A stretch of 32,000 nucleotides of DNA from assembly GCF_008065095.1 (NCBI RefSeq), contig NZ_CP042911.1:7560001-7592000 (forward strand). Reading direction: 5' to 3'. Below are positions 2,845 to 25,877 of the stretch, in pieces. Position 1 is the first letter of the stretch; every line of letters starts with the position of its first letter. Below the pieces are notes generated by a model, which did no database searches, was not told where the DNA came from, and saw only the letters and a list, made by a program, of their open reading frames with translations. Source of the stretch: Gemmata obscuriglobus (GTDB lineage: Bacteria; Planctomycetota; Planctomycetia; Gemmatales; Gemmataceae). The translations under genes and the position numbers were made by a program.

Positions 2845-5343
2845 TTACGCGGCCGCGCCCGCGGACCACGTCCCCCACTTCGGCTCCTGCCCCTTCTTGA
2901 CCAGCCCGCACGACTCGGTTGCGAGCGGGAGCTTCGCCTCCAGCGGGCACCCGCACGCGGCGCACGCGTCCAGCGCCCGCTCCTCGCACAGGGCGCACTC
3001 CGCCTGCCGCGCCTCCAGTACGTCCAGCGGCACCGTTCGGCGCCCGCCCGCCACGTGCCGCGCCATCGCCGCCGTGTAGTTCATCGCCTGGCGCCACAGC
3101 GCCGGCTTCTGTTTCACGTCCTCCGGGCACCGCGACAGAACCATCAGCCCGTGGTTGTTCCGGTCGCGGCGCGTCACCACCCAGCCCGGGTGGCGGTGAC
3201 AGAACGCCCGCAGCGCGTGCAGCACGCCCGGGGCGTCGGGCCGGTCGCCGCTCTCCCCAAACGTCTCGGTGCAGTGGACCGCGATGTACTTCGCCACCCG
3301 CTCGTGGTGCCGCTCCAGCAGGGGCATGAGCGCGTCGGCGGTGTGCTCGGTGTCGATGAACAGCAGGTCCACCGGGGGCAGGTCCGCGGTCGCCGGGTCG
3401 GCCGTGCGGCCCTCGAACCGCGCCCCCAGCCAGCCCTTCATGCGCTCCCACTGCGGCTTCGCGCGTGGGCACACGCTCACGAACGTGCCGTCGGCCGGGA
3501 GGCCGGCAACGATCGCCGCGTCCGCCGGCTTCATCCACAGCGAGAGTTCCGCGGCGCTCGTGCAGCCGGCCGCCAGCGCGCGCAGCGTGCCGACGTGCTC
3601 GTGGAAGTCGGACGGCTTCGCGGCCGACGCCTCGGCCCACGCGGCGGGCGTCGGGTGCGCGTTCGCCTCGCACGCCGAGCACCCGGCCGGCTTCTGCGGT
3701 TTGAACTGCGTCACGTCCACGTTCGACACGGTGACCATCGGGCCGGGCCACCAGTGCCGCGCCTCGCCCCAGTGCGGGTGCCACAGGGACGCGCCGCGCG
3801 GCTCGTAGCACACGTCCCCGTGCGCCGTGAACCGGCCGGCATTGTGATTGACGTGAACACTCGGAGTGCCACTCATGCCCGCGGGGTCGGCGGGCTCCAG
3901 CCGCGCCCAGGCGGACCGATCGGCCTCATGGTCCGGCTCAAGCACCACCGCCGCGCCGCTCGCCGCCTCACGTTCGGCTCGCGCGAGGTTGCTCTGGATC
4001 GTGTCCCAGCGGAGGCAGAGCTGGTGCAGGGGCTCGTGTCGCTCACGCACCCGCTGCCAGCCGGTGCCGCTGAGGCCGATGTAATCGCGGTGCGACACCA
4101 CCGGGGCCGACGGGTGCGCGGCGAGGGCGTCCCCGAGCCGGTCGAAGTACCCCGGGGGGTACAGCACGTCGTGCTCGCAGAACGCGACCGCGTCGTACTC
4201 CTCGCCCGAAGCGGTGGCATGGGCCACCGCCTGCCGGATCTGGGCCAGGATCGTGTTATAGCCCCGCTTCCGCGCCCCGATGAAGCTCCGGAGCATGATC
4301 CCGGGGGTGTTCACGCTCGGGAGAATGCCCAGGTTCCCGCCGATCTCCCAGGCGCACGCGCTGACGGTCACGTCGTGCCGGATGGTCTGCTCCCGGGCGT
4401 CAATCACGGACTGAAGCGAGCGCATGAGGAGGGGGTCCGGGGCGCTGTTATCGCTGTACCACAGGGCCAGTATCCGCTGCCGCGTTGGACCCGGACGGGG
4501 GCCGTCAAGGGGCTGAACGTGCGCCGCGGTCTTGACGAGTCTGTCCCAGGTGTCCGCCCCCAGGTTCTTCCCGAAGTGCTCGCGGATCTGCTGGTCCGCC
4601 TCAATGCCGAGTTCGCGGTGACCGACCAGCAGGTTCCACACGTGGTCCTCGGTGCGGAGCGGGTACGGGGGCGGCGGGTTGTTGTGCCAGCCGGACACGT
4701 CCCGGAACTTGTGCCGCCACCGCAGCCCGGGCACGCACAGCGCCCGGCCCCCGCGGCGCCGCACCACCTCGTGAACGTACCCCTCCTCGCCCCCGAACCC
4801 GTTGAACAGCGGGTGGAACCCGGGCCACGCCGCGGTGCGCATGAGCCACAGCCCGAGGCCCATCATGGGGATCTCGAACGGCTCGCCGGCGGGGGCCGCG
4901 CCGCGCGGGTCCGTGTCCCAGGTGCCCCACAGCCCGCCGCCCGGGTTCGGCTTCCAGTGTGTGCTCAGCCCCCGGCCGTCGTCGTACACCAGCGGCCCGG
5001 ACACGATGTCCCGCGAGTCCGGATAACGTGAGGCGAAGTCGAGGGCCGCCTGCACCGCGCCCGTTTCCAGAATCACGTGGCTGTCGATGCACAGGGCCCA
5101 CGGGGTGCGAGCGAACCGGAACACGGCGTCCCGGGGCTTGGACGTACCGGTGAGGTCCGGGCGGTGCAGGTACCGGCCGCCCACGGCCCGGGTGATCGCC
5201 TCCACCCGCGGGTCCCGCGCTGGGGTGTTGTCCACCACCAGGTACTCGACCTTCGGGTGGTTCGCGTGCAAAGCCGAGAGCACGAACCACACGTGGTCCG
5301 GCTCGCCCCGGGTCGCCATGCCGATCGTCAGCGGGCTGCTCAT
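2845..5343 (-). CDS. Multidomain enzyme: GT2-like glycosyltransferase, second GT-A-like domain, class I SAM-methyltransferase-like domain and a Cys-rich C-terminus
   Basis: 832 aa. The N-terminus has VEYLVVDNTPARD...CIDSHV, a GT2-like nucleotide-sugar/DxD-type signature. The middle has ILALWYSDNSAPD...AFCEHDVLYPPGYF, also GT-A-like. The C-terminal part has SDFHEHVGTL...DLLFIDTEHTADAL...YIAVHCTE, resembling the Methyltransf_24/CmcI-like LLFIDxxH pattern. The tail is ECALCEE...CAACGCP. All calls are by eye. Confidence 0.7.
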   Translation of the reverse strand: MSSPLTIGMATRGEPDHVWFVLSALHANHPKVEYLVVDNTPARDPRVEAITRAVGGRYLHRPDLTGTSKPRDAVFRFARTPWALCIDSHVILETGAVQAALDFASRYPDSRDIVSGPLVYDDGRGLSTHWKPNPGGGLWGTWDTDPRGAAPAGEPFEIPMMGLGLWLMRTAAWPGFHPLFNGFGGEEGYVHEVVRRRGGRALCVPGLRWRHKFRDVSGWHNNPPPPYPLRTEDHVWNLLVGHRELGIEADQQIREHFGKNLGADTWDRLVKTAAHVQPLDGPRPGPTRQRILALWYSDNSAPDPLLMRSLQSVIDAREQTIRHDVTVSACAWEIGGNLGILPSVNTPGIMLRSFIGARKRGYNTILAQIRQAVAHATASGEEYDAVAFCEHDVLYPPGYFDRLGDALAAHPSAPVVSHRDYIGLSGTGWQRVRERHEPLHQLCLRWDTIQSNLARAEREAASGAAVVLEPDHEADRSAWARLEPADPAGMSGTPSVHVNHNAGRFTAHGDVCYEPRGASLWHPHWGEARHWWPGPMVTVSNVDVTQFKPQKPAGCSACEANAHPTPAAWAEASAAKPSDFHEHVGTLRALAAGCTSAAELSLWMKPADAAIVAGLPADGTFVSVCPRAKPQWERMKGWLGARFEGRTADPATADLPPVDLLFIDTEHTADALMPLLERHHERVAKYIAVHCTETFGESGDRPDAPGVLHALRAFCHRHPGWVVTRRDRNNHGLMVLSRCPEDVKQKPALWRQAMNYTAAMARHVAGGRRTVPLDVLEARQAECALCEERALDACAACGCPLEAKLPLATESCGLVKKGQEPKWGTWSAGAAA

Positions 5344-5371: not shown

Positions 5372-7063
5372 TCAAAACGGGCTGCTGGTGCTGAGCCCGG
5401 TGGTTACGGGCGGCGGCGGTGGCGGCGGTGTGGTGGTCGTGCCCGCGCCCGCGCAGGTGCCGTTGCACGACGCCAGGGACATCGGCCCCGTGACCGTGCA
5501 GCCCGCGCACTGGTTAATCGGATCGAAGGAGCACCGCGCCACGCCCCCGGGGCACTGGCAGCAGTAGTAGTCCACCGCCGGGCCGCCGCTGGTGGTGGTC
5601 GGCGCGGGTGTGGTGGTGCTGGTGGTCGTGGTCGGCGCCGCGGTCGTGCCGCCGCCGGGGCCGCAACCGTTGGTGCACGCGACCTCGGACGGGAACTGCG
5701 ACCGCAGGGTCGGGGTCTCGTAATTCTCGCACGGGTGGCCCGGTTCGTTCGTGCAGACGAACCGAACGAATCCCTGATACCGGCACTGCCAGCAGGAGAA
5801 CGGTTGCGCGGTGGTGGTGGTGGTCGTCGTGGTGGGCGGCCCGGCGGTGGTGGTCGGCGCGGCCGTGGTGGTGACGGGCAGCGGCACGCACGCCCCGGCC
5901 GCCTGGGCGCAGGTGCCGGACGGGGCGCCGGGCGGCACCTGGCACGAGCACCCGCCCGCGTTCTCGCACGGCCGCACCACCTTGTCCCAAGCGGTGCCGC
6001 TGTCCGAGCCCCAGATGCAGTCGCCGCACCCGGCCGGGGACGCGGTGGTCACCGCCGCGCACGGGTCGGCGGCGCCGTGGACGTAGCAGCGGGTGGCGGC
6101 CTCGTGACCACAAGAGTTCCCGGGGGCGGCCGGCGCGTCGCAGGAGCAGTTGGGCACGCGCGAGCCGGCGCAAGTGTCGCCGATCTTCTCCCAGCGGTCG
6201 CTCTCGCCCGCCACCCCCGACACCCACACCCAGCGGCACCCACCGTTGCAGAACGACGGCGGCACCACGCACGGGGTGTGTGCCGGCGCACAGGACGAGC
6301 ACGCCCCGGCCGGCGGCTGACAGCCGCAGTAGCCGGCGCACCCGTTGCGCGTCTGCACCCACCCGCGGACCGGGTGACAGAACCAGTCGCACCCGTCGGC
6401 GCAGTCCGCCGGGGCCGGGCACGGGCCGCCCGTCGTGGTCGCGCCGGTGCAGTTCGGCGCCTTGGCGTCTTCGGCGAGGCGGCCGCACGCGGTGGTGGCG
6501 CAGGCGTCGGCGGCGGGGCACCACGTCGGGGCCAGGCAGGCGCAGCCGGCGGCGCAGGTGGAGGCGGTGCGGGTCCAGGCCTTTGCGGCGGCGGAGTAGG
6601 TCCACTGGCACGCGCCGGCGCACGGGCCGGCGGTCGTGGTGGGCGCGGCGGTCGTTGTGGTCGTGGTCTCGCCGACCGCCCGCACCACGGGCACGATCCC
6701 GAGGTCCGCGTCGGCCTCGCCGACCACGCGCCACCCCGGCTGCCCCTTCCGCAGCTTCCAGGTGCCGGCGCCCGCACCCCAGGTCTCGCCCGCCGCGGGG
6801 GTGCCGTCGGCGGCGTCGTACAGCGCCCACACCGGGCCGTCGGGCGCGGCCGCGCCGACCGCCCCGGCGGGCGTCGCCTCGCCCGACAGCACCCACACGT
6901 ACCCGCCGTCGGCGTCCGGCTGCGCGACCGCGTACGGCCCGGTCTTGCCGCCCCCGACGGGCCGCACCAGCGCGTGCGCGGGCGCGTCCGCGCCGGCGGC
7001 GAGGGCCACCGCGAGCCAGTTCAGCCCGCGGTCCGGGCCGTCGAACGGGAGCGGGTGGAACAT
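5372..7063 (-). CDS. Cys-rich tail fibre / receptor-binding-like protein with poly-Thr linkers (563 aa)
   Basis: ATG 7063 overlaps the upstream stop (TGATG). The 775-aa track ORF extends upstream only as an out-of-frame-type overlap with 7063..8850. The protein has an N-terminal domain of about 130 aa, three TTTAAPTTTAGP-type linkers and about 48 Cys by my count. It is the last virion-type gene before the glycosyltransferase. Confidence 0.65.
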   Translation of the reverse strand: MFHPLPFDGPDRGLNWLAVALAAGADAPAHALVRPVGGGKTGPYAVAQPDADGGYVWVLSGEATPAGAVGAAAPDGPVWALYDAADGTPAAGETWGAGAGTWKLRKGQPGWRVVGEADADLGIVPVVRAVGETTTTTTAAPTTTAGPCAGACQWTYSAAAKAWTRTASTCAAGCACLAPTWCPAADACATTACGRLAEDAKAPNCTGATTTGGPCPAPADCADGCDWFCHPVRGWVQTRNGCAGYCGCQPPAGACSSCAPAHTPCVVPPSFCNGGCRWVWVSGVAGESDRWEKIGDTCAGSRVPNCSCDAPAAPGNSCGHEAATRCYVHGAADPCAAVTTASPAGCGDCIWGSDSGTAWDKVVRPCENAGGCSCQVPPGAPSGTCAQAAGACVPLPVTTTAAPTTTAGPPTTTTTTTTAQPFSCWQCRYQGFVRFVCTNEPGHPCENYETPTLRSQFPSEVACTNGCGPGGGTTAAPTTTTSTTTPAPTTTSGGPAVDYYCCQCPGGVARCSFDPINQCAGCTVTGPMSLASCNGTCAGAGTTTTPPPPPPPVTTGLSTSSPF

Positions 7064-8850
7064 CACGCGAGTCCGAACGGGGGCGGGAGCGGGCCGGGGT
7101 CCCGGAGCCGCCGGGCCGGGGGCGGGGCCTGCCGGGCGCGGCGGTCGTACAGGGACTTGCCCAGGAACCGCCGCAGGTCCTCCTGCCGGCGCCGCTCCGG
7201 GAACGCGGGGAGGTACTGGGCGTGCTCGCTGTTGCGGCTCACGCGCGTAGTGGCCGGCTGCCCACCGCCCACCGACCACGTGACCTGCTGGATCGCCCCG
7301 TCCGGGTCGAGGGGCACGATCCCGGCGTACGTGCGGTCCGCGGCGCCGGCCGGCGCGTACCGCGCGTTCGCCGCGTTCAGGTAGTAGGTGGCGGCCGGGA
7401 TCAGATCGTCCAGGTTGTCCCCGGTGCCCTTCGGGGACATGTCCTTGATCTGCCGGTTGGTGCGGACGATGCGCACCAGCTCGGGATGCCGCAGCACCTC
7501 CGGCGGGCACCCGAGTTCGACCAGGCCGGCGAGCGTGCCGCCGTACATCCACCGCTCCGGGACGCGCCCGACGACCGAGCGGATCGTGAACCCGGTGAAC
7601 AGGAACAGGTCCGGCGCGAGCTTCCGGCCCCCCGCGTATTCGTACATCTGGCGGCCGAACGTCACCAGCCCGCGGGCGCCGTCGATGGTGGGGCGCCACG
7701 GCAGCACCTGGGAGCGGTCGGTGTGGTCAAAGGCCCGCGGCAACTCGCTCCGTGTCACCCCGTCCGCCGGGGCGATGTACACCTTCCCGCACGCCTCCGC
7801 GGGCTCGGTCATCGGCTGCCCCAGCAGGTCCTTCTGCCGGTAGTAGATGACCGGCCCGAGGACGAGCTGGTCGCGGTCGCGGACCCGCCCGTACCCGCCC
7901 ACGTTGGGGCCGTCGACCGCCGAGTTGACGACGTCGGCCATCTTCACCCGGAACGTCCGCCACACGTGCCGCCGGGCCAACTCGCGGGCCTCCTCGGCGG
8001 TCAGCTGGTTCGTGGCCGACGCCTCGAACATGGTCTGGGCGTTGCACTGGCTCCACCCCCGCGGCGGGCGGTAGCTCAGGTCGTCGATGTGCCGGACCTC
8101 GCCCGACTTCTCCAGCCCCACCGGCTCGAGCGCGAGCCAGTCGTGGTAGACGGTGGGGCCGCCGGCGAGGACGATCGTGTTGGGCCGCTCGGGCAGGTCC
8201 AGCGTCGTGCTGTTGCTGACGAAGGGGAGGTTGTCGGGCAGCGGCTTCCCGGCGCCGGCGGGGGCCAGCAGCACGCGGTTGGCGACCGGCTGGTACACGA
8301 CCCGGTACCCGACCTCGGCGGCCAGCGCGGCCAGCGCGGACGCCGGCACCTCGTCGTCCCACTCGACCGGCACCGGCACCGCCGGCGGCGGGTCGATGAG
8401 CGGCGCGGTGAGCTCGTTCATGGCCGCGAGGCAGTCGGCCATCAGCAGGTGCGCGGGCCGGTACGTGCCCGGGGCGTACGGCCCGCCGGCGGCGATGTAC
8501 TCGCCCGGCGGCAGGTTCGTGAGGTCCTCCTTGCTCGCGAGCTGGTTCCAGTTCCCCGAGATCGCGCCGTACCGCCACATCCAGCGGCGGTCGGCGATGT
8601 GGAGGACGACGGTGCGGCCGCCGGCGGGCGAGGCGCCGAAGCTGACGTCGGTGACCCGGCACCGGTCCAGCTTCACGGTGCCGACGCCGTCCGTGATGAC
8701 CAGGGTGCCGAAGCTGCGGACGGTGCGCAGGTCCTGCTCGGGGATCTCCAGGGCGGCGATCCCGGGGCCGACGTCGTGGCTCACGGTGTACGTGCACGAC
8801 ACGCACCCGACGGCGCCCGGCCACCACGCCTGCCCCAGCCGCACGCCCAT
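7063..8850 (-). CDS. Distal tail / baseplate-hub-like structural protein (595 aa)
   Basis: It lies in the tail module downstream of the tape measure and is translationally coupled on both sides (TGAcATG upstream, TGATG downstream). I recognise no specific family. Confidence 0.6.
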   Translation of the reverse strand: MGVRLGQAWWPGAVGCVSCTYTVSHDVGPGIAALEIPEQDLRTVRSFGTLVITDGVGTVKLDRCRVTDVSFGASPAGGRTVVLHIADRRWMWRYGAISGNWNQLASKEDLTNLPPGEYIAAGGPYAPGTYRPAHLLMADCLAAMNELTAPLIDPPPAVPVPVEWDDEVPASALAALAAEVGYRVVYQPVANRVLLAPAGAGKPLPDNLPFVSNSTTLDLPERPNTIVLAGGPTVYHDWLALEPVGLEKSGEVRHIDDLSYRPPRGWSQCNAQTMFEASATNQLTAEEARELARRHVWRTFRVKMADVVNSAVDGPNVGGYGRVRDRDQLVLGPVIYYRQKDLLGQPMTEPAEACGKVYIAPADGVTRSELPRAFDHTDRSQVLPWRPTIDGARGLVTFGRQMYEYAGGRKLAPDLFLFTGFTIRSVVGRVPERWMYGGTLAGLVELGCPPEVLRHPELVRIVRTNRQIKDMSPKGTGDNLDDLIPAATYYLNAANARYAPAGAADRTYAGIVPLDPDGAIQQVTWSVGGGQPATTRVSRNSEHAQYLPAFPERRRQEDLRRFLGKSLYDRRARQAPPPARRLRDPGPLPPPFGLA

Positions 8851-8851
8851 G

Positions 8852-10159
8852 TCACATCCCCGCCGCCGTGTACTTCTTGTGCCGCCCGAACCCCCACCAC
8901 GCCACGTCGGCGCCGCGGTCGTCCGGCCCCGCGGGCGGCCGGCACTCGTACCACTCGACGGGGTTCGTGTACGCCACCGGCGCGTCCCCCGCGCCGCCGC
9001 GGCTCCCGGCGAACAGCCGCAGGGTCGTGATGGTCAGGGCGGCGAGCCCGCGCCGGTACGCCTCGCCGCCGTTCTCCAGCAGCGCGACGGTGCCGGTCCC
9101 GTCGAGGTACAGCACCCCGCCGCGGTTCTTCAGGGACCCGCTCACCGGCCCTTGTAGCGTGAGCGTGCCGTCGGTCTTCACGACCGTGGCGGCGCCGTTG
9201 AGGACCTCGACGGTGCCGCCGGACTGGTCGAGGTTGGTGAGGGTCAGGTTCGGGCCGCACCGGACGACGGCGTCCGAGGACACGCTGGTGCGGTAGCTCA
9301 CGTTCAGGTCCGCGACGGTGCCGGCGTCGCCGGGCAGCCGGTTCACCCCGACGTACCCCTTGAACACGTACACCGCGGCCGTGGCCGCGAGCTTCAGGTC
9401 GAGGGCGTCCCCGCTCGCCTGCTCCGGCTGCCCGGTGTCGCGCACCGTGACCGTGGTCGATGCCGGTGACAGGTCGAGGCGGACCCGGCGGCTCGCGCTC
9501 TCGACGTCCGCAACGGTCGCGCCGATCCGCAGCCGCCGCGCCCGGTACTCGGGGTAGCCGGTCTCCGGGCTGCTCGCGTTCGTGTGGTCCGGAAGCCCGA
9601 TGGAGGACGAGCTCGGGTAGCCCGGCAGGATCTTGAGGGACGCGAGCGTGACCGCGCCCTGGTCGAGGCCGTACAGGATCGACGGCCCCTTGGCGATGGT
9701 CACGTCGTCGCCGGTCGCCGGGACCGCGTTCTCCTCCCAGTTGGCCGCGACGCTCCAGAAATTGGGGCCGCTCGCGGCGGTCGCGACGGCGCCGGTGGTG
9801 GCCGCGGTGCCGCCCTGGATCGTCTGGGCGTCGGCCGCGGTGCCGCCGGCCTCGAGCGGGGCGAGCGTGACCTCGAAGTCCTTGCCGGCGGTGTCGTGGG
9901 TCAGGGTGAGCGTGGTGCCGTTCGCGCTGGCCGTAATTTCGGCGAACTCGGGGTAGTTCCCGCTGTCGAGGTTGTTCCAGGCGGTGGCGACGTTGGCCAC
10001 CGCGGTGGCGGTGGTGACGGAGCCGACGGCGAAATCGGCGCGCTTGCCGTTCGCGAAGCTCGCGCGCACGAGGTCGTCGGCCTCCCACGTGCCGCCGAAC
10101 GCGAACGTCACCACCTTCGCCACCCGGGGCGCCGCCCCGGCCCAGTTGCGCGCGGCCAT
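8852..10159 (-). CDS. Tail protein with beta-helix-like repeats (435 aa)
   Basis: GAGGAG SD upstream of ATG 10159. The protein has Thr/Gly/Val/Ala-rich repeated strands (GGTVEVLNGAATVVKTDGTLTLQG...) typical of beta-helical passenger or tailspike folds. It sits in the tail module. Confidence 0.6.
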   Translation of the reverse strand: MAARNWAGAAPRVAKVVTFAFGGTWEADDLVRASFANGKRADFAVGSVTTATAVANVATAWNNLDSGNYPEFAEITASANGTTLTLTHDTAGKDFEVTLAPLEAGGTAADAQTIQGGTAATTGAVATAASGPNFWSVAANWEENAVPATGDDVTIAKGPSILYGLDQGAVTLASLKILPGYPSSSSIGLPDHTNASSPETGYPEYRARRLRIGATVADVESASRRVRLDLSPASTTVTVRDTGQPEQASGDALDLKLAATAAVYVFKGYVGVNRLPGDAGTVADLNVSYRTSVSSDAVVRCGPNLTLTNLDQSGGTVEVLNGAATVVKTDGTLTLQGPVSGSLKNRGGVLYLDGTGTVALLENGGEAYRRGLAALTITTLRLFAGSRGGAGDAPVAYTNPVEWYECRPPAGPDDRGADVAWWGFGRHKKYTAAGM

Positions 10160-10168
10160 TGCTGCTCC

Positions 10169-10885
10169 TCACCCCGCGGGCCAGCGGTTCGGGACGCCCG
10201 CCAGCGGGGTCGCGGACACGAACCGGTACGCCCAGCTCACGGGCCAGTCGACGTACACCCCGTTGCGGAGCCGGGGCGAGCCGAGCGTCGGCTCGCCGTC
10301 CACCTCGAGCTTGCCGGGCCACAGCGGGGCCGGGGGCGTCGGGTACCCGGTCAGCCCCACCGCCTGCCCGATCTGGGTGGCGCGGAACGCCGTGTACAGC
10401 GCCAGCACCTGCTCCTGCGGGGGCGCGTTCGCGCACTCGACCACCGTGCGCCGCGGGCCGCCGCCGCTGAACGCGAGCGTTTCCGTGAACGACCGGAGCA
10501 GGTTCTCGCCGCCGCCGGCCGGGTAGTCGGCGGTGGCGACGATGGAGTAATCGACGAACGTGGTGAGCTGGGCGCCCGCGCCGCTCGGGTAGCTCGGCGG
10601 CTTGACGATCTTCACCCCGGTCGTACTGCCCGCGTTCGGGAGCTGCCACACCACCGTCGGCCCGTCCGCCAGCACCAGGTCGCGGTACCAGACCGCGTAC
10701 GCGCGCTCGAGCTGCACCATCTTCACCGCGAGCGCGGCGGCGGTGTCCGCCTGGAGCTGCCCGGAGATGGTCCAGGTGACCCGGCGGGCGTAGTACTGGC
10801 CGGCGTCGTTCTCCAGCGCCTGCTGGTCGACCGCGACCGCGCACTCGCCGTCGTCGTGCTGGTAGCTCCCGTAGCGGACGATCAC
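10169..10885 (-). CDS. Minor tail protein, possibly distal-tail (Dit)-like by position (238 aa, GTG start)
   Basis: It is the first gene after the tape measure in the late direction and is preceded by promoter-like motif S1. No family recognised. Confidence 0.55.
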   Translation of the reverse strand: MIVRYGSYQHDDGECAVAVDQQALENDAGQYYARRVTWTISGQLQADTAAALAVKMVQLERAYAVWYRDLVLADGPTVVWQLPNAGSTTGVKIVKPPSYPSGAGAQLTTFVDYSIVATADYPAGGGENLLRSFTETLAFSGGGPRRTVVECANAPPQEQVLALYTAFRATQIGQAVGLTGYPTPPAPLWPGKLEVDGEPTLGSPRLRNGVYVDWPVSWAYRFVSATPLAGVPNRWPAG

Positions 10886-10914
10886 GGCGCGAACCCCCGG
10901 TTGGCCCCGGGTTC

Positions 10915-10944
10915 AGTGTGCGGGAGGGGGTTGCCCGGATGAAA
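10915..10944 (-). promoter_or_regulatory. Late promoter-like motif S1 (TTTCAT-N18-CACACT)
   Basis: The minus strand reads TTTCAT CCGGGCAACCCCCTCCCG CACACT, 29 nt upstream of GTG 10885. Confidence 0.5.
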
Positions 10945-11057
10945 GGGGGCGGCGCGCTAAGTCCGGTCCCGGGAAGCTATTGGCGCGATCCCGCCGATCG
11001 GGTCCAATACCCCGGTGTGTGAGTGAGGGGCGGGACGGCGCGCGGGCCGCCGCCGCC

Positions 11058-11074
11058 GGTGCGTGCGCCCGCAC
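11058..11074. repeat. GC palindrome, imperfect copy (GGTGCGTGCGCCCGCAC)
   Basis: It differs by one mismatch from the palindrome at 15065-15082 and 19972-19991. It lies 11 nt upstream of the lipoprotein ATG and about 110 nt from S1. Confidence 0.4.
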
Positions 11075-11085
11075 TAGGGTGTCGC

Positions 11086-11688
11086 ATGCGCTGGCTCGTG
11101 TTTGTAGTCTCCGTCCCATTGCTAACTTGTTGTGGCCGCCCAGCGACTGATGAGGCTTCGTCAGCACCAGCCACTCCGGCGGCTGTGGTTGATGATTTTG
11201 AGTCCGCCTTTAGCGCTGCGAAGCGAGAAATAATCGCTGCCACAGCAGACGGTGATAAAGAGGCTGAGCTATTACGGTTGCTCGACCTTAAGGATCGTGA
11301 ACTCGCGCATGCCAAGATGGCAGCTGTCGAGGCTAATAAAAAAGATGGGAGTGATGACGATGTTCACTGGTTTGCCGCGAATCGTCTGGCGCGCTGGCAC
11401 ACGGCGCGTGTGATGTCGCGTGCCGCGAATAGCCAGGATTTTGTGCGTGTTGTCCGCGCCGTATGTGACCGAAATGCGCCAGAGCGGCCAAATAAGTTCC
11501 AGCTTATCCAGTTCATGATTGACTGGGGCGCGGCCGATTCGCTGCTCCATGTTGAGGCAGTCGATTTTTTTGTGACCCATCCGAGGCGCGTCGAGGAACT
11601 CTCCCCCGGCGCGAAGGACCGGCTTCTGCGTTTTGCAGGCCAAGAGGCGATGCTTTTTGTGCCACAACAAGCCCGTACGGAACCTTAG
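11086..11688 (+). CDS. Putative secreted lipoprotein (200 aa), low-GC cargo gene
   Basis: The signal peptide MRWLVFVVSVPLLTCCGRP has a lipobox-like LLTC. GC is visibly lower (about 50-55%) than the flanks. The gene is on the opposite strand to the late genes, and its stop overlaps the tape-measure stop (TTAG). Confidence 0.6.
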   Translation: MRWLVFVVSVPLLTCCGRPATDEASSAPATPAAVVDDFESAFSAAKREIIAATADGDKEAELLRLLDLKDRELAHAKMAAVEANKKDGSDDDVHWFAANRLARWHTARVMSRAANSQDFVRVVRAVCDRNAPERPNKFQLIQFMIDWGAADSLLHVEAVDFFVTHPRRVEELSPGAKDRLLRFAGQEAMLFVPQQARTEP

Positions 11689-13361
11689 TTTGCCCGCTCA
11701 ATACGCCCGCGCTCGGAGTCGAGTTGCGGGCGGCGGAGGTCGATTTGGAGCTGCTTGATCAGCGCCTCACCGATCAGCTCCTTCAGGTTCATCTGCTTGA
11801 GCTTCTCCGCCATGACCGCCGCGAACTGCTGCTCGTCGATCTGCACCCGGACGTCCACCTTGGCCTTGAGCTCCTGCTGGAGGCCGCTCAGCGTGTCCAG
11901 GTCGCGCAGGCCCGCGAGCTGGAAGAGTTCCTTCAGCTGAGGGTCGTCCTTCACGTCACGCGTCAGCTTGTCCTGCACCAACCCGGACGTGATCGGGTTC
12001 GCCGAGAGCCGCGACAGCTCGTCGGCGGTGACGTTCTCGCGCCCGCCGGACTGGAACCGCTTCGCCGCGTCGAGGAAGTCGAACTGCTCGGACTTGCTCA
12101 GCGCGCCGTACGCCTGGGCGCCGCCCTTGGCCTTGGCGTACTCCTCGTCCAAGATGGCGAGCTGCGTCTTCATCGAGTTTGTAACGGCCTTCCGCAGCTC
12201 CGCCTCCTTCTGGAGCAGGGTGAGCTGCTTCTCCTTGCTGGCAGTGATCTTCTCCTCCAGGATCTGCAGCGCCTGCCGGGCCTGCCGCTCGGCGCGCTGC
12301 TCCTGGTTCATCGCGTCGAGGTAGCTGGAGTCCGTACCCGTGGCCCCGCGTGGCCCGGTGTCCGAGAACCGGGCCACGCGGGGCCCCACGTAGCCCGCGA
12401 TCCGCTCGAAGATCGGGGTCGCGGGGGTCCTCAGCAACCACGGCATCCGGGACACGTATACGTCCGCCCGCAGGTCCTTCGCCTCCTTCTCCTCGGCGAG
12501 CGTGCGCTCGCGGGCGGAGTTCCACCGCCTCCACGTCGAATCCACCTCACGGCGCGCAAATCCGACGTCGCTGTATGCCGATGTGGCCCCGGCCGAGGCC
12601 TCTGCAACGCCACGCCGGGCCATCTGGACCGCCTCGTCCGCGGCCCGCATCCGCGGGTCCTGGTTCTCCTGCACCCCGCCGATGGCGATGCTCGCCGCGG
12701 CGGCCGTCAAGGAATCGGGATGCCGCATCGCGATCCGGTCGCGAAAGTCGAGGTGCGGGTATTTCCGGATAGCATCGAGACGGTTCCGGGCGTCCCGGCT
12801 TTCGCCGTACAGGCCCTGGAAGCGGCGCCGGTACCCGAAGTCGACCTCGCGCTGCGCGAGCTCGACCGGCAGCGCGATTGCGTCGCGGTCGAGCCGGCGG
12901 GCGGTGTCCGGGTCCACCAGGCGGTCGACCGCGTTCTTGGCGTTGGAGAGGAACGCCGCCAGCGCCTCCCCCACCACCGGGATCGCCTTCGCGAATCCCA
13001 GTACCCGCTCCCGGCTCGTGAGCAACTCGTTGTCGAGCTGCCCGAACGCGTGGGTCATGTTGGCGACGGTGGCCGCCACGGCCGCCCCCGTCGCGAGCCA
13101 GCCGGCCGCAGCGCCCGCGACGCCCATCACCCCGGCCCCGAGGGCACGCGCGCCCTGGCCGACGGCCGCGGCGCCGCTGCCGACCTGCGCGAGGATGCCG
13201 GGCTGGCGCGGCCCGATGTCGCTCATTGCCCGCTTCGCCTGCTTGGCGGCCTCGTCCACCTTCTTGGCGTCGGCGGCGAGGAGCTCCATCGCGCGGTGCG
13301 CGACGGTCGGGTCCGCCGTGAGCAGGAGCCGCAGTTCGAGCTGCTTCAGGGTGGGGAGCAC
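11685..13361 (-). CDS. Tail tape measure protein (558 aa)
   Basis: It lies immediately downstream of the frameshifted chaperone pair. It has long helical, charged segments plus Gly/Ala-rich hydrophobic segments (GAGVMGVAGAAAGWLATGAAVAATV). The GTG start lies 1 nt downstream of the preceding TGA stop (TGAcGTG). Confidence 0.8.
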   Translation of the reverse strand: MLPTLKQLELRLLLTADPTVAHRAMELLAADAKKVDEAAKQAKRAMSDIGPRQPGILAQVGSGAAAVGQGARALGAGVMGVAGAAAGWLATGAAVAATVANMTHAFGQLDNELLTSRERVLGFAKAIPVVGEALAAFLSNAKNAVDRLVDPDTARRLDRDAIALPVELAQREVDFGYRRRFQGLYGESRDARNRLDAIRKYPHLDFRDRIAMRHPDSLTAAAASIAIGGVQENQDPRMRAADEAVQMARRGVAEASAGATSAYSDVGFARREVDSTWRRWNSARERTLAEEKEAKDLRADVYVSRMPWLLRTPATPIFERIAGYVGPRVARFSDTGPRGATGTDSSYLDAMNQEQRAERQARQALQILEEKITASKEKQLTLLQKEAELRKAVTNSMKTQLAILDEEYAKAKGGAQAYGALSKSEQFDFLDAAKRFQSGGRENVTADELSRLSANPITSGLVQDKLTRDVKDDPQLKELFQLAGLRDLDTLSGLQQELKAKVDVRVQIDEQQFAAVMAEKLKQMNLKELIGEALIKQLQIDLRRPQLDSERGRIERAN

Positions 13362-13362
13362 G

Positions 13363-14105
13363 TCACAGCCCCTTCAGAAGTGAGCCGAGGGTCAGGAGCC
13401 CGTGCCGCGCCCGCTCGGCCCGCTCGGCGGCCGCTCGCGCGCCGCGGATGATGGCGGCGTTGCGGCGCACGATCGGGTCCGGCGGGAACGCCCCGACCGC
13501 GTCGCACTCCAGGAAGTGCAGGTACGCGGCGCGGTTCTTCTCGCTCAGGTCCTGGGCGCTCGCAGGCACCGGCTCGTCGCCGGGCGCCACCTTCGGGCAC
13601 CACTGGCACGGGGGCTTGACGCCCCGCGGCCGCGCCACGGGCCGGCCGCCCCGTTCGACACGGTGCCCGAACTGGCCCGGGCCGCGGTCGTGGTACAGGT
13701 GCCGCGCGCAGTCGTCACACGAACGCGCCGCGATCTCCGGGTGAAGGAGGAGCACTCGCAGCGCGAAGATCAGTTTTTTGCGTCTTTGGCCTCGTCCGCC
13801 GGCTCGTACCCGAGGATCAGGTTCGCCGCCCACGCCCGCACCGCGGGCACCAGCCGGGCGACCTTGTCCGGGTCGCGGTACTCGCGCCCGTTGATCGAGA
13901 CGAGCTGCCGCCGGATCAGGTCCGCCTCGGCCGCCTCGTGGACCGCCGCGTCCGGGGAGGCCATCTTCTGGCGGAAGACGTGGCGCTCCTTCGCGAGCGC
14001 CGGCCGGTAGCTGATGGTGAGTTCCGGGTGCAGGCCCGGGACGGCGGGGACGGTGCGGACGGCGGTGTAGCCGTCCGTAATGAGCAGCGGGTCGGTGTCG
14101 TGCAT
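13363..14105 (-). CDS. Tail assembly chaperone, -1 frameshift fusion product (gpGT-like)
   Basis: The zero frame runs 14105..13773. After a -1 slip at A_AAA_AAC it continues as KKLIFALRV... to 13363. The extension ORF (track 13363..13833) has no convincing start or SD of its own. Confidence 0.65.
13770..14105 (-). CDS. Tail assembly chaperone (gpG-like, 111 aa)
   Basis: It lies between the tail tube and the tape measure. It has an acidic C-terminus and ends ...DAKN-TGA, with the slippery heptamer forming its last codons. Confidence 0.7.
   Translation of the reverse strand: MHDTDPLLITDGYTAVRTVPAVPGLHPELTISYRPALAKERHVFRQKMASPDAAVHEAAEADLIRRQLVSINGREYRDPDKVARLVPAVRAWAANLILGYEPADEAKDAKN
13773..13779 (-). 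promoter_or_regulatory. Programmed -1 ribosomal frameshift heptamer A_AAA_AAC
   Basis: The minus strand reads GCA AAA AAC TGA. The X_XXY_YYZ register is correct for the zero frame. The -1 frame stays open for about 136 more codons. Confidence 0.65.
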
Positions 14106-14107
14106 GG

Positions 14108-14983
14108 TCAGCCCGTGGAGTCGTTGGTGACGGCGATCGGCGGCGCCCCGCCGGTGGTGCGGCGGGCCGTGCCCGCCCAGGTGAGGTCGCGCGGCCCCCG
14201 CTGCCCGAGCGGCAGCGGCTGCTTCGGGGCCGAGACGCCGGCGAGGTTGAAGGCGATGCTGCGGTTCCCGTTCGTGAACATCGCCACCACCGCCACGCCG
14301 CTAATGGCGCTGCCGTACAGGGCGGCGGTGTCCCCGTAGGGCAGGCTCAGGTTCACCCCGACCATCAGGTCGGTGGCGCTGATCGAGCTCGGCGTGACCG
14401 AGTTGTTGAACCGCACCTGCAGCGCGTTGTTGATCTCGATCGAGATGGAGCGGAACTGGTGCGCCTGGCCGCCCACCGTCAGCACGCAGTCGGACATGAC
14501 GTACGGGCCGGCGTCGTCGTCGATCGCGTCGGCCTCGGTGGGGTCGGTGTCGACCGCCTCGTCGATGCCGACCACGTCGAGCGCCAGCCCGAGCGGCCCG
14601 CCCTCCGCGGCGCTGAACACCGCGCGGTTGACCTTGAGCCCGTTGTACAGGTGCTTGGTGCCGTCCCGGTAGGTCTTGACGAACCGCGCCGGCACGGCCT
14701 CCGCGAGCGGGAAGGCGTCCGCGTTCTCGTTGCCGCCGAGGATCCACGGCAGCAGCAGGTCCAGCTCCGAGGCGACGGGCGCCATTTGGATCGTGCCGGA
14801 CACCTGCCGCTGGGTCTCGCGCACGCGGCCCGCGCTGTGCTGGCGCGTGCCGCGGATGCCGTTGGTGTCGGTGAGGGTTTGGTTCAGCCCGAGGGTCGTG
14901 CCTTCGAGAAACTCGATAGCGGTGTACGTGGCGTCGTCGGCCGACAGCCACATGCGGTCGAACGTCCCGATCTGCTCCGCCAT
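14108..14983 (-). CDS. Major tail tube protein candidate (291 aa)
   Basis: It lies directly upstream of the chaperones and is the first gene after motif S2. It has a GGGGGTGAGGTG SD region. Composition and length fit siphovirus tube proteins. The family is not confirmed. Confidence 0.6.
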   Translation of the reverse strand: MAEQIGTFDRMWLSADDATYTAIEFLEGTTLGLNQTLTDTNGIRGTRQHSAGRVRETQRQVSGTIQMAPVASELDLLLPWILGGNENADAFPLAEAVPARFVKTYRDGTKHLYNGLKVNRAVFSAAEGGPLGLALDVVGIDEAVDTDPTEADAIDDDAGPYVMSDCVLTVGGQAHQFRSISIEINNALQVRFNNSVTPSSISATDLMVGVNLSLPYGDTAALYGSAISGVAVVAMFTNGNRSIAFNLAGVSAPKQPLPLGQRGPRDLTWAGTARRTTGGAPPIAVTNDSTG

Positions 14984-25872: not shown

Positions 25873-25877
25873 GTCGC

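What the first reader, a model, noticed from the sequence alone, without database searches (positions are those of the whole stretch)
5372..7063. Tail-fibre-position protein built from a fourfold Cys-rich repeat and mucin-like poly-Thr/Pro linkers
After an N-terminal domain of about 130 aa, the protein has three near-identical linkers (TTTTTTAAPTTTAGP, TTTAAPTTTAGPPTTTTTTTT, TTAAPTTTTSTTTPAPTTT) and a C-terminal TTTTPPPPPPP. Residues 148-392 (5888-6622) contain four units of one pattern, C-x-G-x-C-x-W ... W-x(4-6)-C ... C-x-C-x-(A/P)P. The units are CAGACQWTYSAAAKAWTRTASTCAAGCAC, CADGCDWFCHPVRGWVQTRNGCAGYCGC, CNGGCRWVWVSG..DRWEKIGDTCAG...CSC and CGDCIWGSDSGTAWDKVVRPCENAGGCSC. Two further small Cys-rich domains follow. 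I count about 48 Cys in 563 aa. I cannot assign the repeat to a known family. A cytoplasmically assembled virion protein this rich in Cys implies metal clusters or post-lysis disulfide locking. It is likely the receptor-binding module.
Basis: seen in the sequence. Interest (0 to 1): 0.65.

Follow-up and report, generated by a model that had tools for sequence, protein, structure and literature searches.

The report
Mucin-like, disulfide-knotted phage tail fibre
A Gemmata prophage encodes, as the last tail gene, a fibre protein made of small cysteine-knotted beads joined by poly-threonine strings; it is always followed by a sugar-adding enzyme resembling the animal enzymes that start mucin glycosylation, so the fibre is probably a glycosylated, disulfide-locked host-recognition fibre of a kind not yet described.

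Summary
Window 5372..7063 (-) encodes a 563-aa protein with exactly 48 Cys, 73 Thr, four poly-Thr/Pro linkers and four C-x-G-x-C-x-W...W...C...C-x-C-x-x-P units. None of 20,000 shuffles gave four units.

It is the last gene of a Mu-like-head, siphovirus-type tail module in Gemmata obscuriglobus, and its start overlaps the stop of the upstream 595-aa tail gene.

- **No known family.** Pfam, PHROGs, NCBIfam, PDB sequences, GenBank phages and Foldseek (PDB, BFVD) give no match, even for a unit model with pLDDT 95.
- **A real family.** At least 211 protein clusters share the whole four-unit core, in Planctomycetes and metagenomes.
- **Disulfides favoured.** Cys number per core is even in 52 of 62 cores, optional Cys come and go in pairs, and His almost never replaces Cys. 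This argues against metal sites.
In all 11 independent loci examined, the next gene is a soluble GT2-family glycosyltransferase. Its D-x-H, GGE and distal-His motifs align with mucin-type polypeptide GalNAc-transferases.

Best reading: a bead-on-a-string distal tail fibre whose Thr linkers are O-glycosylated in the cytoplasm and whose Cys modules are disulfide-locked. Virion membership, glycosylation and receptor binding are inferred, not shown.

The parts
5372..7063 (-). Gene for the 563-aa Thr/Cys-rich fibre protein. Its start overlaps the stop of the upstream gene, and its stop codon is at 5372-5374.
6668..7063 (-). N-terminal domain (aa 1-132), Cys-free, the putative anchor to the tail tip. 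It carries the shared motif P-x-x-GE-x-WG-x-x-AG-x-W. It is only about 35-40% identical to the paralogue P0001, whereas the rest of the protein is about 98% identical.
6623..6667 (-). Poly-Thr/Pro linker 1 (aa 133-147, TTTTTTAAPTTTAGP). This is the mosaic breakpoint between the anchor and the distal part, and a putative O-glycosylation tract.
6443..6622 (-). Cys unit 1 (aa 148-207, 9 Cys). The AF2 model has pLDDT 94.9 and shows three strands. Cys spacing is C-x3-C-x17-C-x3-C-x-C-x5-C.
6269..6421 (-). Cys unit 2 (aa 215-265, 10 Cys, CADGCDWFCHPVRGWVQTRNGCAGYCGC...). It includes the optional pair C229/C255.
6059..6250 (-). Cys unit 3 (aa 272-335, 8 Cys, CNGGCRWVWVSG...WEKIGDTCAG...CSC...).
5888..6028 (-). 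Cys unit 4 (aa 346-392, 7 Cys, CGDCIWGSDSGTAWDKVVRPCENAGGCSC...). C385 covaries with C188 of unit 1.
5807..5878 (-). Poly-Thr/Pro linker 2 (aa 396-419).
5663..5803 (-). C-terminal Cys module B1 (aa 421-467, 6 Cys, C-x-x-C...C...C...C-x3-C). It does not match the unit HMM.
5573..5662 (-). Poly-Thr/Pro linker 3 (aa 468-497).
5453..5572 (-). C-terminal Cys module B2 (aa 498-537, 8 Cys, YYCCQC...GPM...C-x3-C). This module type recurs in 12 of 152 family proteins. By eye it is about 90% identical in the paralogue P0002, whose core is 64% identical.
5375..5452 (-). C-terminal tail (aa 538-563) with TTTTPPPPPPP.
2845..5343 (-). Partner gene, 28 nt downstream: an 832-aa soluble multidomain glycosyltransferase. 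Domains are GT2 (aa 1-270), a conserved middle domain, a Methyltransf_24/CmcI-like domain and a C-terminal Cys cluster. A homologue follows the fibre gene in all 11 independent loci examined.
4534..5343 (-). GT-A catalytic domain of the partner enzyme. The invariant residues D87-S88-H89, G184-G185-E186 and H211 align with the DxH motif, the Gal/GalNAc-T motif and the distal His of polypeptide GalNAc-transferases 10 and 7.
7063..8850 (-). Upstream 595-aa tail-tip protein, translationally coupled to the fibre gene. It is homologous to the ~400-aa N-terminal domain that is fused directly to the Thr/Cys module in at least 15 other family clusters.
8852..10885 (-). Two further tail-tip genes (435 aa and 238 aa), syntenic with locus L001. 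Their function is unknown.
11685..14983 (-). Tape-measure-like gene (11685-13361), two small ORFs in the tail-chaperone position, and the tail tube (14108-14983, Pfam Phage_tube_2). These define the tail module.

Best explanation
The gene encodes the distal fibre of a temperate siphovirus-type phage of Gemmata obscuriglobus with a Mu-like head.

**Proposed mechanism**
1. The fibre is made from the late tail operon, translationally coupled to the 595-aa tail-tip protein. It docks onto that protein through its Cys-free N-terminal domain of about 130 aa.
2. The soluble glycosyltransferase/methyltransferase encoded 28 nt downstream O-glycosylates the poly-Thr/Pro linkers in the cytoplasm before assembly. 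Glycosylation would turn the linkers into stiff, protease-resistant, mucin-like spacers.
3. The Cys modules are small beta-hairpin domains held by disulfides. There are four type-A units forming a conserved 245-aa core, plus two C-terminal type-B modules. The disulfides form once the protein leaves the reducing cytoplasm, or through an unknown oxidase.
4. The resulting glycosylated bead-on-a-string fibre projects from the tail tip, and its distal modules contact the host surface.

**Shown:** the sequence anatomy, gene order and start/stop overlap, family size, pairwise Cys behaviour, the strictly conserved enzyme partner with its catalytic motifs, and the mosaic and fusion patterns.

**Inferred:** presence in the virion, actual glycosylation and the sugar used, actual disulfides and their connectivity, and receptor binding.
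For: **Tail context**
- Portal_Mu, Mu F, a protease-like protein and gpT head genes, then Phage_tube_2 and a weak tape-measure-like hit, lie upstream on the same strand.
- The start/stop overlap is tgATG.
- Homologues lie in IMG/VR contigs and next to a baseplate wedge, a major head protein or a tail assembly protein.

**Attachment**
- A profile of the N-terminal domain of fused relatives (P0079, P0012 and others) hits only the window's 595-aa protein among 431 ORFs. E = 5e-9, in three colinear stretches.

**Modular exchange**
- The paralogue P0001, in the same genome, is about 98% identical from aa 134 onwards but only about 35-40% identical in the anchor.
- C-terminal module sets differ between Gemmata species.

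**Family**
- 211 clusters at E <= 1e-3 and 128 at E <= 1e-10, most matching the whole core in one stretch.

**Disulfides**
- Cys per core ranges from 28 to 40 and is even in 52 of 62 cores (p = 6e-8).
- Optional Cys covary: 229/255 (phi 0.85), 188/385 and 215/335.
- Conserved Cys are replaced by G, T, A or S, and by His only once.
- The C3-C4 loop varies from 2 to 9 residues and tolerates poly-Thr insertions.
- The unit-1 model is confident (pLDDT 94.9) and all-beta.
- There is a precedent: phage Jabs has about 1,700 virion disulfides.

**Glycosylation**
- A GT2 gene lies directly downstream in the window and in L001, L002, L003, L005, L007, L008, L010 and L011. In L004 it is separated only by a methyltransferase gene. 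Genome locus L012 shows the same arrangement.
- Neither protein has a signal peptide or a membrane segment.
- The fibre is the only protein in the window with many poly-Thr runs.
- The enzyme profile aligns with polypeptide GalNAc-transferases T10 and T7 over the DxH, GGE and distal-His motifs.
- Genomic relatives of the enzyme in many phyla have a poly-Thr ORF within 2.5 kb upstream on the same strand in 31 of 66 loci. The controls gave 0 of 66 on the opposite strand and 1 of 61 downstream.
Against: - No proteomic, glycan or redox data exist. Virion membership rests on synteny and fusion alone.
- The three upstream 'tail-tip' genes match no known tail family.
- The similarity to polypeptide GalNAc-transferases is weak statistically (E about 0.005). 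Pfam calls the domain plain GT2, and the best PDB hit for the N-terminal half is the teichoic-acid enzyme TarP.
- Cys parity per linker-delimited segment is only weakly even, 359 against 312. Parity of whole proteins is random, 78 against 74. Some of these proteins may be contig-end fragments, which was not checked.
- The covariation counts are small and the sequences are not phylogenetically independent.
- The N-terminus is the variable part and the core is conserved, which is less typical of fibres than a conserved anchor.
- No phage-encoded thiol oxidase was found in the window.
Confidence: 0.55

Rival explanations
1. The Cys modules are metal-binding (zinc-ribbon-like or other Cys4 sites), not disulfide-bonded. 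This would fit folding in a reducing cytoplasm.
For: - The protein has no signal peptide, so it folds in the cytoplasm.
- Unit topology is a Cys pair, a beta-hairpin, then another Cys pair, which resembles a zinc ribbon.
- The type-B modules begin with C-x-x-C.
- The partner enzyme also ends in a C-x2-C...C-x2-C-G-C cluster.
Against: - Cys number per core changes in steps of two, with 52 of 62 cores even.
- Optional Cys covary as pairs, not as quartets.
- His replaces a conserved Cys once in about 86 substitutions, and cores contain only 1% His.
- The C1-C2 spacing is x3 and the C3-C4 loop is 2-9 residues, with long poly-Thr inserts tolerated. Zinc knuckles have fixed spacing.
- The only sequence resemblance in the PDB, though weak, is to a disulfide knottin.
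Confidence: 0.13
2. The gene pair is a moron or accessory cassette at the end of the late operon, not a fibre. It would make a glycoprotein that decorates the particle or acts in the lysogen, for example as a glycan shield, in surface mimicry or in superinfection exclusion, without binding a receptor.
For: - It is the last gene pair of the structural operon, a usual site for accessory genes.
- Relatives of the enzyme outside phages sit next to Tat-exported poly-Thr proteins, which are cellular surface or secreted proteins.
- The upstream tail genes are unannotated.
Against: - The gene is translationally coupled to the upstream tail gene.
- The Thr/Cys module is fused to the homologue of that tail protein in at least 15 clusters.
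- None of the 5 fibre-family ORFs has a Tat signal, and only 1 of 142 family proteins has a hydrophobic N-terminus.
- The anchor/distal mosaic between two prophages of one host is the classic pattern for receptor-binding proteins.
- The pair is kept behind tails of different types.
Confidence: 0.15
3. The downstream glycosyltransferase does not act on the fibre. It would modify another target, such as host envelope glycan, another virion protein or DNA, and its adjacency to the fibre gene would only reflect operon position.
For: - The best PDB match for the N-terminal half is TarP or TarS, teichoic-acid glycosyltransferases.
- Prophage-borne GT2 enzymes that alter host surface glycans are common (established knowledge of gtr-type conversion).
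Against: - Adjacency holds in 11 of 11 independent loci, spanning 49-73% GC and different upstream genes.
- The enzyme has no membrane segment.
- Relatives in unrelated phyla are also preceded by poly-Thr ORFs: 31 of 66, against 0 of 66 and 1 of 61 in the controls. The shared feature is therefore the poly-Thr tract.
- The catalytic motifs match peptide-O-glycosylating enzymes.
Confidence: 0.15

Closest known systems
Mycobacteriophage virion glycosylation (Freeman et al. 2023, Cell Host Microbe, cited as ref. 80 in PMC12582341; details from my own knowledge)
   Same: A tailed phage carries its own soluble glycosyltransferases, which O-glycosylate structural proteins in the cytoplasm before assembly.
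   Different: In mycobacteriophages the targets are C-terminal extensions of capsid and tail-tube subunits. Here the presumed target is a set of mucin-like poly-Thr linkers in a Cys-rich distal fibre. The enzyme is a GT2/GalNAc-transferase-like, methyltransferase-like multidomain protein, and the host is a planctomycete. Glycosylation is not demonstrated here.
Animal mucin-type O-glycosylation: PTS domains plus polypeptide GalNAc-transferases (GT27; PDB 2d7i, 6iwq)
   Same: Pro/Thr-rich tracts flanked by Cys-rich domains. The enzyme shares the D-x-H motif, the PFExPxMxGGLFA...GGE motif and the distal His in colinear order.
   Different: The statistical match is weak (E about 0.005). There is no ricin-type lectin domain and no membrane anchor or Golgi context. 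There are extra middle, methyltransferase-like and Cys-cluster domains. The sugar donor is unknown.
Chlorovirus PBCV-1 A064R (PMC7826918)
   Same: A virus-encoded three-domain protein with two glycosyltransferase domains and a methyltransferase domain, which builds and methylates the glycan of a virion protein.
   Different: That is a eukaryotic virus making an N-linked capsid glycan. No sequence relationship was detected here. The methyltransferase-like domain here scores below the Pfam threshold (E 0.007-0.2).
Serine-rich repeat adhesins of Gram-positive bacteria (SRRPs, GtfA/B; my own knowledge)
   Same: Adhesive fibres with long Ser/Thr repeats that are O-glycosylated in the cytoplasm by dedicated, co-encoded enzymes and that flank binding modules.
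   Different: SRRPs have signal peptides, accessory Sec export and GT4-type GtfA/B, and are cell-wall anchored. None of these features is present here.
Knottins (inhibitor cystine knots), e.g. squash trypsin inhibitor EETI-II (PDB 1h9i_I)
   Same: The second half of unit 1 has the same Cys spacing, C-x3-C-x-C-x5-C (TCAAGCACLAPTWC against DCLAGCVCGPNGFC). The six-Cys frame is compatible, and two covarying pairs fit the I-IV and II-V connectivity.
   Different: The profile match is not significant (E = 0.12). The loop between Cys II and III is 15-17 residues, a Trp-bearing hairpin, against the 8 or fewer that I recall as usual for knottins. There are extra Cys beyond six. Foldseek finds no knottin.
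Fungal cellulase CBM1 modules on O-glycosylated Ser/Thr/Pro linkers (my own knowledge)
   Same: Tiny disulfide-stabilised, aromatic-rich beta modules of about 35 aa joined by O-glycosylated Thr/Pro linkers.
   Different: The Cys pattern is different and there is no Pfam match. CBM1 proteins are secreted eukaryotic enzymes.
Disulfide network of mycobacteriophage Jabs (bioRxiv 10.64898/2026.07.24.740622)
   Same: A tailed-phage virion locked by many disulfides, including in its adhesion device.
   Different: In Jabs the disulfides cross-link ordinary structural proteins. Here the Cys are concentrated in one protein built of dedicated mini-domains, while the other structural proteins are Cys-poor.

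Membership tests
Phage tail fibre / receptor-binding protein | Encoded in the tail morphogenesis module, distal to the tape-measure and tail-tip genes | tested here: met
   The order is tube (Phage_tube_2), a weak tape-measure-like hit, three genes, then this gene. Its start overlaps the stop of the upstream gene.
Phage tail fibre / receptor-binding protein | Anchor domain plus an exchangeable distal part (mosaicism between phages of one host) | tested here: met
   P0001 is about 98% identical from aa 134 onwards but only about 35-40% identical in aa 1-133. Fusions to the homologue of the upstream tail protein exist.
Phage tail fibre / receptor-binding protein | Sequence or fold homology to a described fibre or spike family | tested here: not met
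   No hit in Pfam, PHROGs, NCBIfam, PDB or 50,697 GenBank phages. Foldseek gave nothing below E = 2.
Phage tail fibre / receptor-binding protein | Present in the virion and needed for adsorption | not testable with these tools
   This needs virion proteomics and adsorption assays.
Knottin (inhibitor cystine knot) | Six-Cys frame with knottin loop lengths | tested here: inconclusive
   Over 578 units the spacing is C-x3-C-x(15-17)-C-x(2-9)-C-x-C-x(5-10)-C. The spacing from Cys III to VI in unit 1 equals that of EETI-II, but loop 2 is far longer than the 8 or fewer residues I recall as usual for knottins.
Knottin (inhibitor cystine knot) | I-IV, II-V, III-VI disulfide connectivity with a threaded ring | not testable with these tools
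   No model coordinates are returned. The covarying pairs 221/246 (I-IV) and 276/308 (II-V) are compatible but rest on 5 and 3 sequences.
Knottin (inhibitor cystine knot) | Significant sequence or structure similarity to known knottins | tested here: not met
   Best profile E = 0.12. No knottin appears among the Foldseek hits.
Zinc ribbon / Cys4 metal site | Fixed-spacing C-x2-C knuckles, Cys/His interchange, ligands lost as a set | tested here: not met
   The x3 spacing, variable loops, changes of Cys number in steps of two and a single His replacement all argue against it. Only the type-B modules have C-x-x-C.
Mucin-like (PTS) domain | Long Pro/Thr/Ser-rich low-complexity tracts between Cys-rich domains | tested here: met
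   The protein has four tracts and 10 Thr runs. The family median is 17% Thr and 13 Thr runs.
Mucin-like (PTS) domain | Dense O-glycosylation of the tracts | not testable with these tools
   This is inferred only from the conserved enzyme partner.
Polypeptide GalNAc-transferase (GT27), for the partner gene | GT-A domain with the D-x-H motif, the Gal/GalNAc-T (GGE) motif and a distal His | tested here: met
   The invariant residues D87-x-H89, G184-G185-E186 and H211 align colinearly with T10 and T7.
Polypeptide GalNAc-transferase (GT27), for the partner gene | Family-level sequence match | tested here: inconclusive
   Profile E = 0.0055 to T10 and T7 and 0.7-0.9 to T2. Pfam assigns Glycos_transf_2 only.
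Polypeptide GalNAc-transferase (GT27), for the partner gene | C-terminal ricin-type lectin domain and type II membrane anchor | tested here: not met
   There is no such domain and no membrane segment. Instead there are a middle domain, a Methyltransf_24-like domain and a Cys cluster.
Carbohydrate-binding modules (CBM1, CBM14, CBM18 and others) | Match to a described CBM family | tested here: not met
   No Pfam family at E <= 0.01. The best fold hit to a CBM has E = 5 and TM 0.24.

The most novel reading that the evidence does not exclude
Planctomycete phages carry a self-contained mucin-type O-glycosylation system: an enzyme resembling polypeptide GalNAc-transferases plus its own mucin-like substrate. 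The substrate would be a tail fibre made of a previously undescribed disulfide-knotted mini-domain. The same enzyme family, with 369 relatives across bacterial phyla that are often preceded by poly-Thr proteins carrying Tat signals, would mark a widespread and unrecognised cytoplasmic poly-Thr O-glycosylation pathway in prokaryotes.
Probability: 0.35. Interest if true: 0.82.

Novelty: new variant of a known kind. Interest (0 to 1): 0.68.

Why it matters
Almost nothing is known about how phages recognise Planctomycetes. As I recall, their envelopes are unusual and described as rich in Cys and Pro.

If the reading is right:
- It gives a defined candidate host-recognition protein for Gemmata prophages.
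- It defines a new small fold: about 60 aa, a confident model, no PDB counterpart, about 580-660 copies in the 152 family proteins examined. Such a fold could serve as a stable scaffold.
- It would be the first case of a phage fibre built like a mucin, with its own glycosylating enzyme.

The enzyme carries the catalytic motifs of the animal mucin-initiating transferases. That bears on where this chemistry came from and offers a soluble bacterial enzyme for glycoengineering Thr-rich peptides.

All of this can be tested directly with an inducible lysogen and with E. coli co-expression.

Tried and rejected
- **Family and structure libraries.** The fibre has no hit in Pfam, PHROGs, NCBIfam or PDB sequences, apart from one spurious response-regulator hit at E = 0.014.
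- **GenBank phages.** tblastn of the fibre and of the enzyme against 50,697 records found nothing.
- **Four-unit core model.** AF2 with 9 sequences gave pLDDT 68, and Foldseek found nothing.
- **Unit-1 model.** The confident model (pLDDT 94.9) had no Foldseek hit below E = 2 in either PDB or BFVD.
- **Word-indexed search.** A search with the 64-position unit profile returned nothing usable.
- **Genome scan.** The scan with the core alignment failed for lack of a conserved pattern, so the enzyme alignment was used instead.
- **BLASTP against fused relatives.** Comparing the 595-aa protein with them was not significant. A profile was needed to show the homology.
- **Upstream tail-tip genes.** PHROGs at E <= 1 gave nothing.
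- **Segment parity.** Cys parity per linker-delimited segment was only marginal. I do not use it as main evidence.
- **C148/C170 co-loss.** I judge this an alignment artefact caused by poly-Thr insertions inside unit 1.
- **Signal peptide.** The hydrophobic stretch LNWLAVALAAGA near the N-terminus was considered as a signal peptide. I rejected it: maximum hydropathy is 1.65, the preceding region is acidic, and homologues lack it.
- **Recent duplication.** DNA repeats within the gene are only 60-89% identical and short. The units are therefore old, not recent duplications.


Full report
**1.

Window 5372..7063 on the minus strand translates to a 563-aa protein. It has exactly 48 Cys, 73 Thr, 63 Pro and 17 Trp. 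The start ATG shares one base with the stop of the upstream 595-aa gene (tgATG). The next gene begins 28 nt after the stop.

A regular expression for the unit finds exactly four copies, at aa 148-176, 221-248, 272-308 and 346-374. In 20,000 shuffles four copies never occurred. A unit HMM trained on the wider family recovers the same four.

Among 25 likely genes of the window, this is the only one with many poly-Thr runs (10, against 0-1) and a high Cys content (8.5%). The other structural proteins have 0-1.5% Cys.

**2. Genomic context**

The window is a prophage of Gemmata obscuriglobus. The identical 595-aa protein lies on ABGO01000052.1 (GCA_000171775.1) and on a 9.03-Mb contig. In ABGO01000052.1 the target gene was called with a later start, giving 451 aa.

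All of the following lie on the minus strand:
- Mu-type portal, Mu F, a 735-aa protein whose C-terminal part matches a head-maturation-protease PHROG, and gpT major head protein
- tail tube (Phage_tube_2) and two small ORFs in the chaperone position
- a 558-aa tape-measure-like protein (weak PHROG hit, one hydrophobic segment)
- genes of 238, 435 and 595 aa with no known family
- the target gene
- an 832-aa GT2-family protein

No sheath gene was found between the head genes and the tube. The layout is that of a siphovirus, and the target is the last structural gene.

**3. A sizeable but undescribed family**

The whole protein finds only ten relatives by word-indexed search, all in Gemmata or metagenomes. 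The poly-Thr words probably saturated that search.

A profile of the Thr-free core (aa 146-394, alignment A2) was searched exhaustively against 1.84 billion representative proteins. It finds 211 clusters at E <= 1e-3 and 128 at E <= 1e-10. Most match all 252 profile positions in a single stretch. The four units are therefore one ancient, conserved block rather than a recent tandem repeat. DNA-level repeats in the gene are weak.

- Family proteins are a median 706 aa long, with 8% Cys, 17% Thr and 13 Thr runs.
- They hold about 580-660 recognisable units.
- Named sources are Gemmata species, Thermostilla marina and a Planctomycetaceae MAG. One MAG is labelled Beijerinckiaceae.

The unit formula over 578 copies is C-x3-C, then x-(W/Y/F), then a hairpin with a second W, then C-x(2-9)-C-x-C-x-x-P-x(2-7)-C. 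Frequencies are:
- 78% have x3 between the first two Cys, and Gly is central in 75% of those
- the first aromatic is W in 61%
- the second aromatic is W in 75%
- Pro follows in 85%

The two C-terminal Cys domains of the window protein do not fit this unit. They belong to a second recurrent module, (Y/W)-x-C-x-x-C...C...C...(G/S)-P-(F/Y/M)...C-x(2-4)-C, found in 12 of 152 proteins.

**4. No known fold or family**

- Pfam, PHROGs, NCBIfam and PDB sequence searches are empty.
- A 44-sequence alignment of unit 1 gives a very confident AF2 model: pLDDT 94.9, pTM 0.76, three strands.
- Foldseek nevertheless finds nothing below E = 2 in PDB or BFVD. Foldseek is weak on domains this small.

The only sequence echo is to the squash knottin EETI-II, at E = 0.12. 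The stretch C-x3-C-x-C-x5-C is shared (TCAAGCACLAPTWC against DCLAGCVCGPNGFC). This is a lead, not a match.

**5. Disulfides rather than metal**

- In 62 full-length cores the Cys count runs from 28 to 40. It is even in 52 of them (binomial p = 6e-8), so Cys are gained and lost two at a time.
- Optional Cys covary: 229 with 255 (17 both, 41 neither, 4 mixed), 188 with 385, and 215 with 335. The rarer losses 276/308 and 221/246 fit knottin-like II-V and I-IV pairs.
- Lost Cys are replaced by G, T, A or S, and by His only once in about 86 cases.
- The C3-C4 loop varies from 2 to 9 residues and accepts long poly-Thr insertions, for example in P0079 and P0138.

Caveats:
- Parity per linker-delimited segment is only marginally even.
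- Whole-protein parity is random. Some of these proteins may be contig-end fragments, which was not checked.
- The sequences are related to one another.
- I could not inspect model coordinates.

Family proteins lack signal peptides (1 of 142 has a hydrophobic N-terminus). Oxidation would therefore have to happen after release or through an unknown factor. A tailed phage with about 1,700 virion disulfides has recently been described.

**6. The conserved enzyme partner**

In every locus I could examine, the next gene on the same strand is a 515-986-aa GT2 protein. In L004 a separate methyltransferase gene sits between the two. The loci are the window, L001, L002, L003, L004, L005, L007, L008, L010 and L011. 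They span 49-73% GC, IMG/VR contigs and the Thermostilla chromosome. Genome locus L012 shows the same arrangement. The upstream genes differ from locus to locus.

The enzymes share four regions: an N-terminal GT-A domain, a conserved middle domain, a Methyltransf_24/CmcI-like domain (below threshold, E 0.007-0.2) and a C-terminal Cys cluster. They have no membrane segment.

A profile of eight of these enzymes hits TarP (E = 6e-5) with its N-terminal half. It also hits polypeptide GalNAc-transferases T10 and T7 (E = 0.0055). The GalNAc-transferase alignment is colinear over ciDSHvl/FLDSHCE, PFeipmmGlGlfa/PFESPVMAGGLFA, GfGGEe/IWGGEQ and RWrHkfR/RVGHIYR. From my own knowledge, these correspond to the DxH metal motif, the Gal/GalNAc-T motif and the distal metal-binding His of that family. 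D87, H89, G184-G185-E186 and H211 are invariant in the phage enzymes.

Scanning one genome per species found 369 relatives of the GT domain across many phyla. Among the 66 returned loci with enough upstream sequence, a Thr-run ORF lies within 2.5 kb upstream on the same strand in 31. The controls gave 0 of 66 on the opposite strand and 1 of 61 downstream. Only five of those ORFs belong to the fibre family. At least 13 of the other 26 carry twin-arginine signals.

What travels with this enzyme is therefore the poly-Thr tract, with or without Cys modules. This is the main reason to think the linkers are its substrate.

**7. Evidence for a fibre role**

- A profile of the ~400-aa N-terminal domain of at least 15 family clusters (P0079, P0012 and others) hits one ORF among 431: the window's 595-aa upstream protein. 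E = 5e-9, in three colinear stretches. In those phages the tail protein and the Thr/Cys module form a single polypeptide.
- L001 keeps the order 238-like, 435-like, 595-like, fibre, enzyme.
- Homologues sit downstream of a baseplate wedge (L010), a major head protein (L011) and a tail assembly protein (L003).
- P0001, from the same genome, is about 98% identical from the first linker onwards but only about 35-40% identical in the N-terminal 133 aa.
- A third copy, P0002, has an unrelated N-terminus and a core 64% identical to the window's. By eye, its last module is about 90% identical.
- Other Gemmata species carry different C-terminal modules.

Distal parts shared within one host while anchors differ is the usual signature of receptor-binding proteins. 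It remains indirect evidence.

**8. Comparison with known systems**

The system works like a combination of known things:
- phage-encoded virion glycosylation in mycobacteriophages
- a multidomain viral glycosyltransferase-methyltransferase (chlorovirus A064R)
- mucin PTS domains with their initiating transferases
- cytoplasmically glycosylated Ser-rich adhesins
- disulfide-locked virions (phage Jabs)

It is a member of none of these by sequence. The Cys unit has no described family. I rate it a new variant of a known kind: a phage tail fibre with a new domain and a new, probably glycosylated, architecture.

**9. Verdict**

- Confidence in the combined mechanism is about 0.55. By part: tail-module gene about 0.9, virion fibre about 0.7, disulfides about 0.7, linker glycosylation about 0.6, receptor binding about 0.5.

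Noticed in passing
window 26761-31989 (-): A 1,742-aa ORF with strong coding signal (GC3 0.97) matches Portal_Mu only in its first 352 aa. The remaining ~1,390 aa have no Pfam match, and the ORF overlaps the Mu F gene by 134 nt. It is either a giant portal fusion or something else is encoded there.
   Followed up: partly
window 24697-25872 (+): A CHAT-domain (caspase-like protease) gene lies on the opposite strand, between a 349-aa gene of unknown function and the Mu F gene. It partly overlaps the lowest-GC stretch of the window (56% at 25001-26000). It looks like an inserted accessory or defence gene.
   Followed up: no
window 10886-11684, including the + strand ORF 11023-11688: There is a GC dip to about 60% and an 800-nt gap in the minus-strand operon between the tape-measure-like gene and the 238-aa gene. 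A 221-aa ORF of unknown function lies on the opposite strand.
   Followed up: partly
loci L023, L024, L025, L030, L032, L034, L040, L042, L048, L053, L078, L085, L090 (upstream of the GT match): In Chloroflexota, Proteobacteria, Acidobacteriota and other phyla, relatives of the glycosyltransferase are preceded by poly-Thr proteins carrying twin-arginine (Tat) signals. This suggests cytoplasmic O-glycosylation of Thr tracts before Tat export, as a cellular counterpart of the phage gene pair.
   Followed up: partly
L048 1454-4819 (+): A Thermomicrobiales ORF of about 1,120 aa has a Tat signal, poly-Thr linkers and 15.8% Cys. The Cys sit in CC-rich modules of a different type from the Gemmata unit.
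   Followed up: no
proteins P0079 and P0138 (unit 1): Long poly-Thr tracts are inserted inside unit 1, between the third Cys and the C-x-C. This loop therefore tolerates tens of residues, and the unit may consist of two sub-modules.
   Followed up: partly
L091 5125-6480 (ABGO01000052.1): The public record calls the target gene as 451 aa, starting 112 codons downstream of the ATG that overlaps the upstream stop. The N-terminal anchor domain is therefore missing from the deposited protein.
   Followed up: yes
P0001, P0002 and the window protein: The G. obscuriglobus genome carries at least three paralogous fibre genes (the window's, GobsT_37810 and GobsT_12330). This implies several related prophages or tail modules in one genome.
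   Followed up: partly
L015 2528-4975 (+): A full fibre-plus-enzyme pair lies on a 23.7-kb contig binned as Beijerinckiaceae. The core profile hits it at E = 1e-18. This is either a mis-binned phage contig or a host outside Planctomycetes.
   Followed up: no
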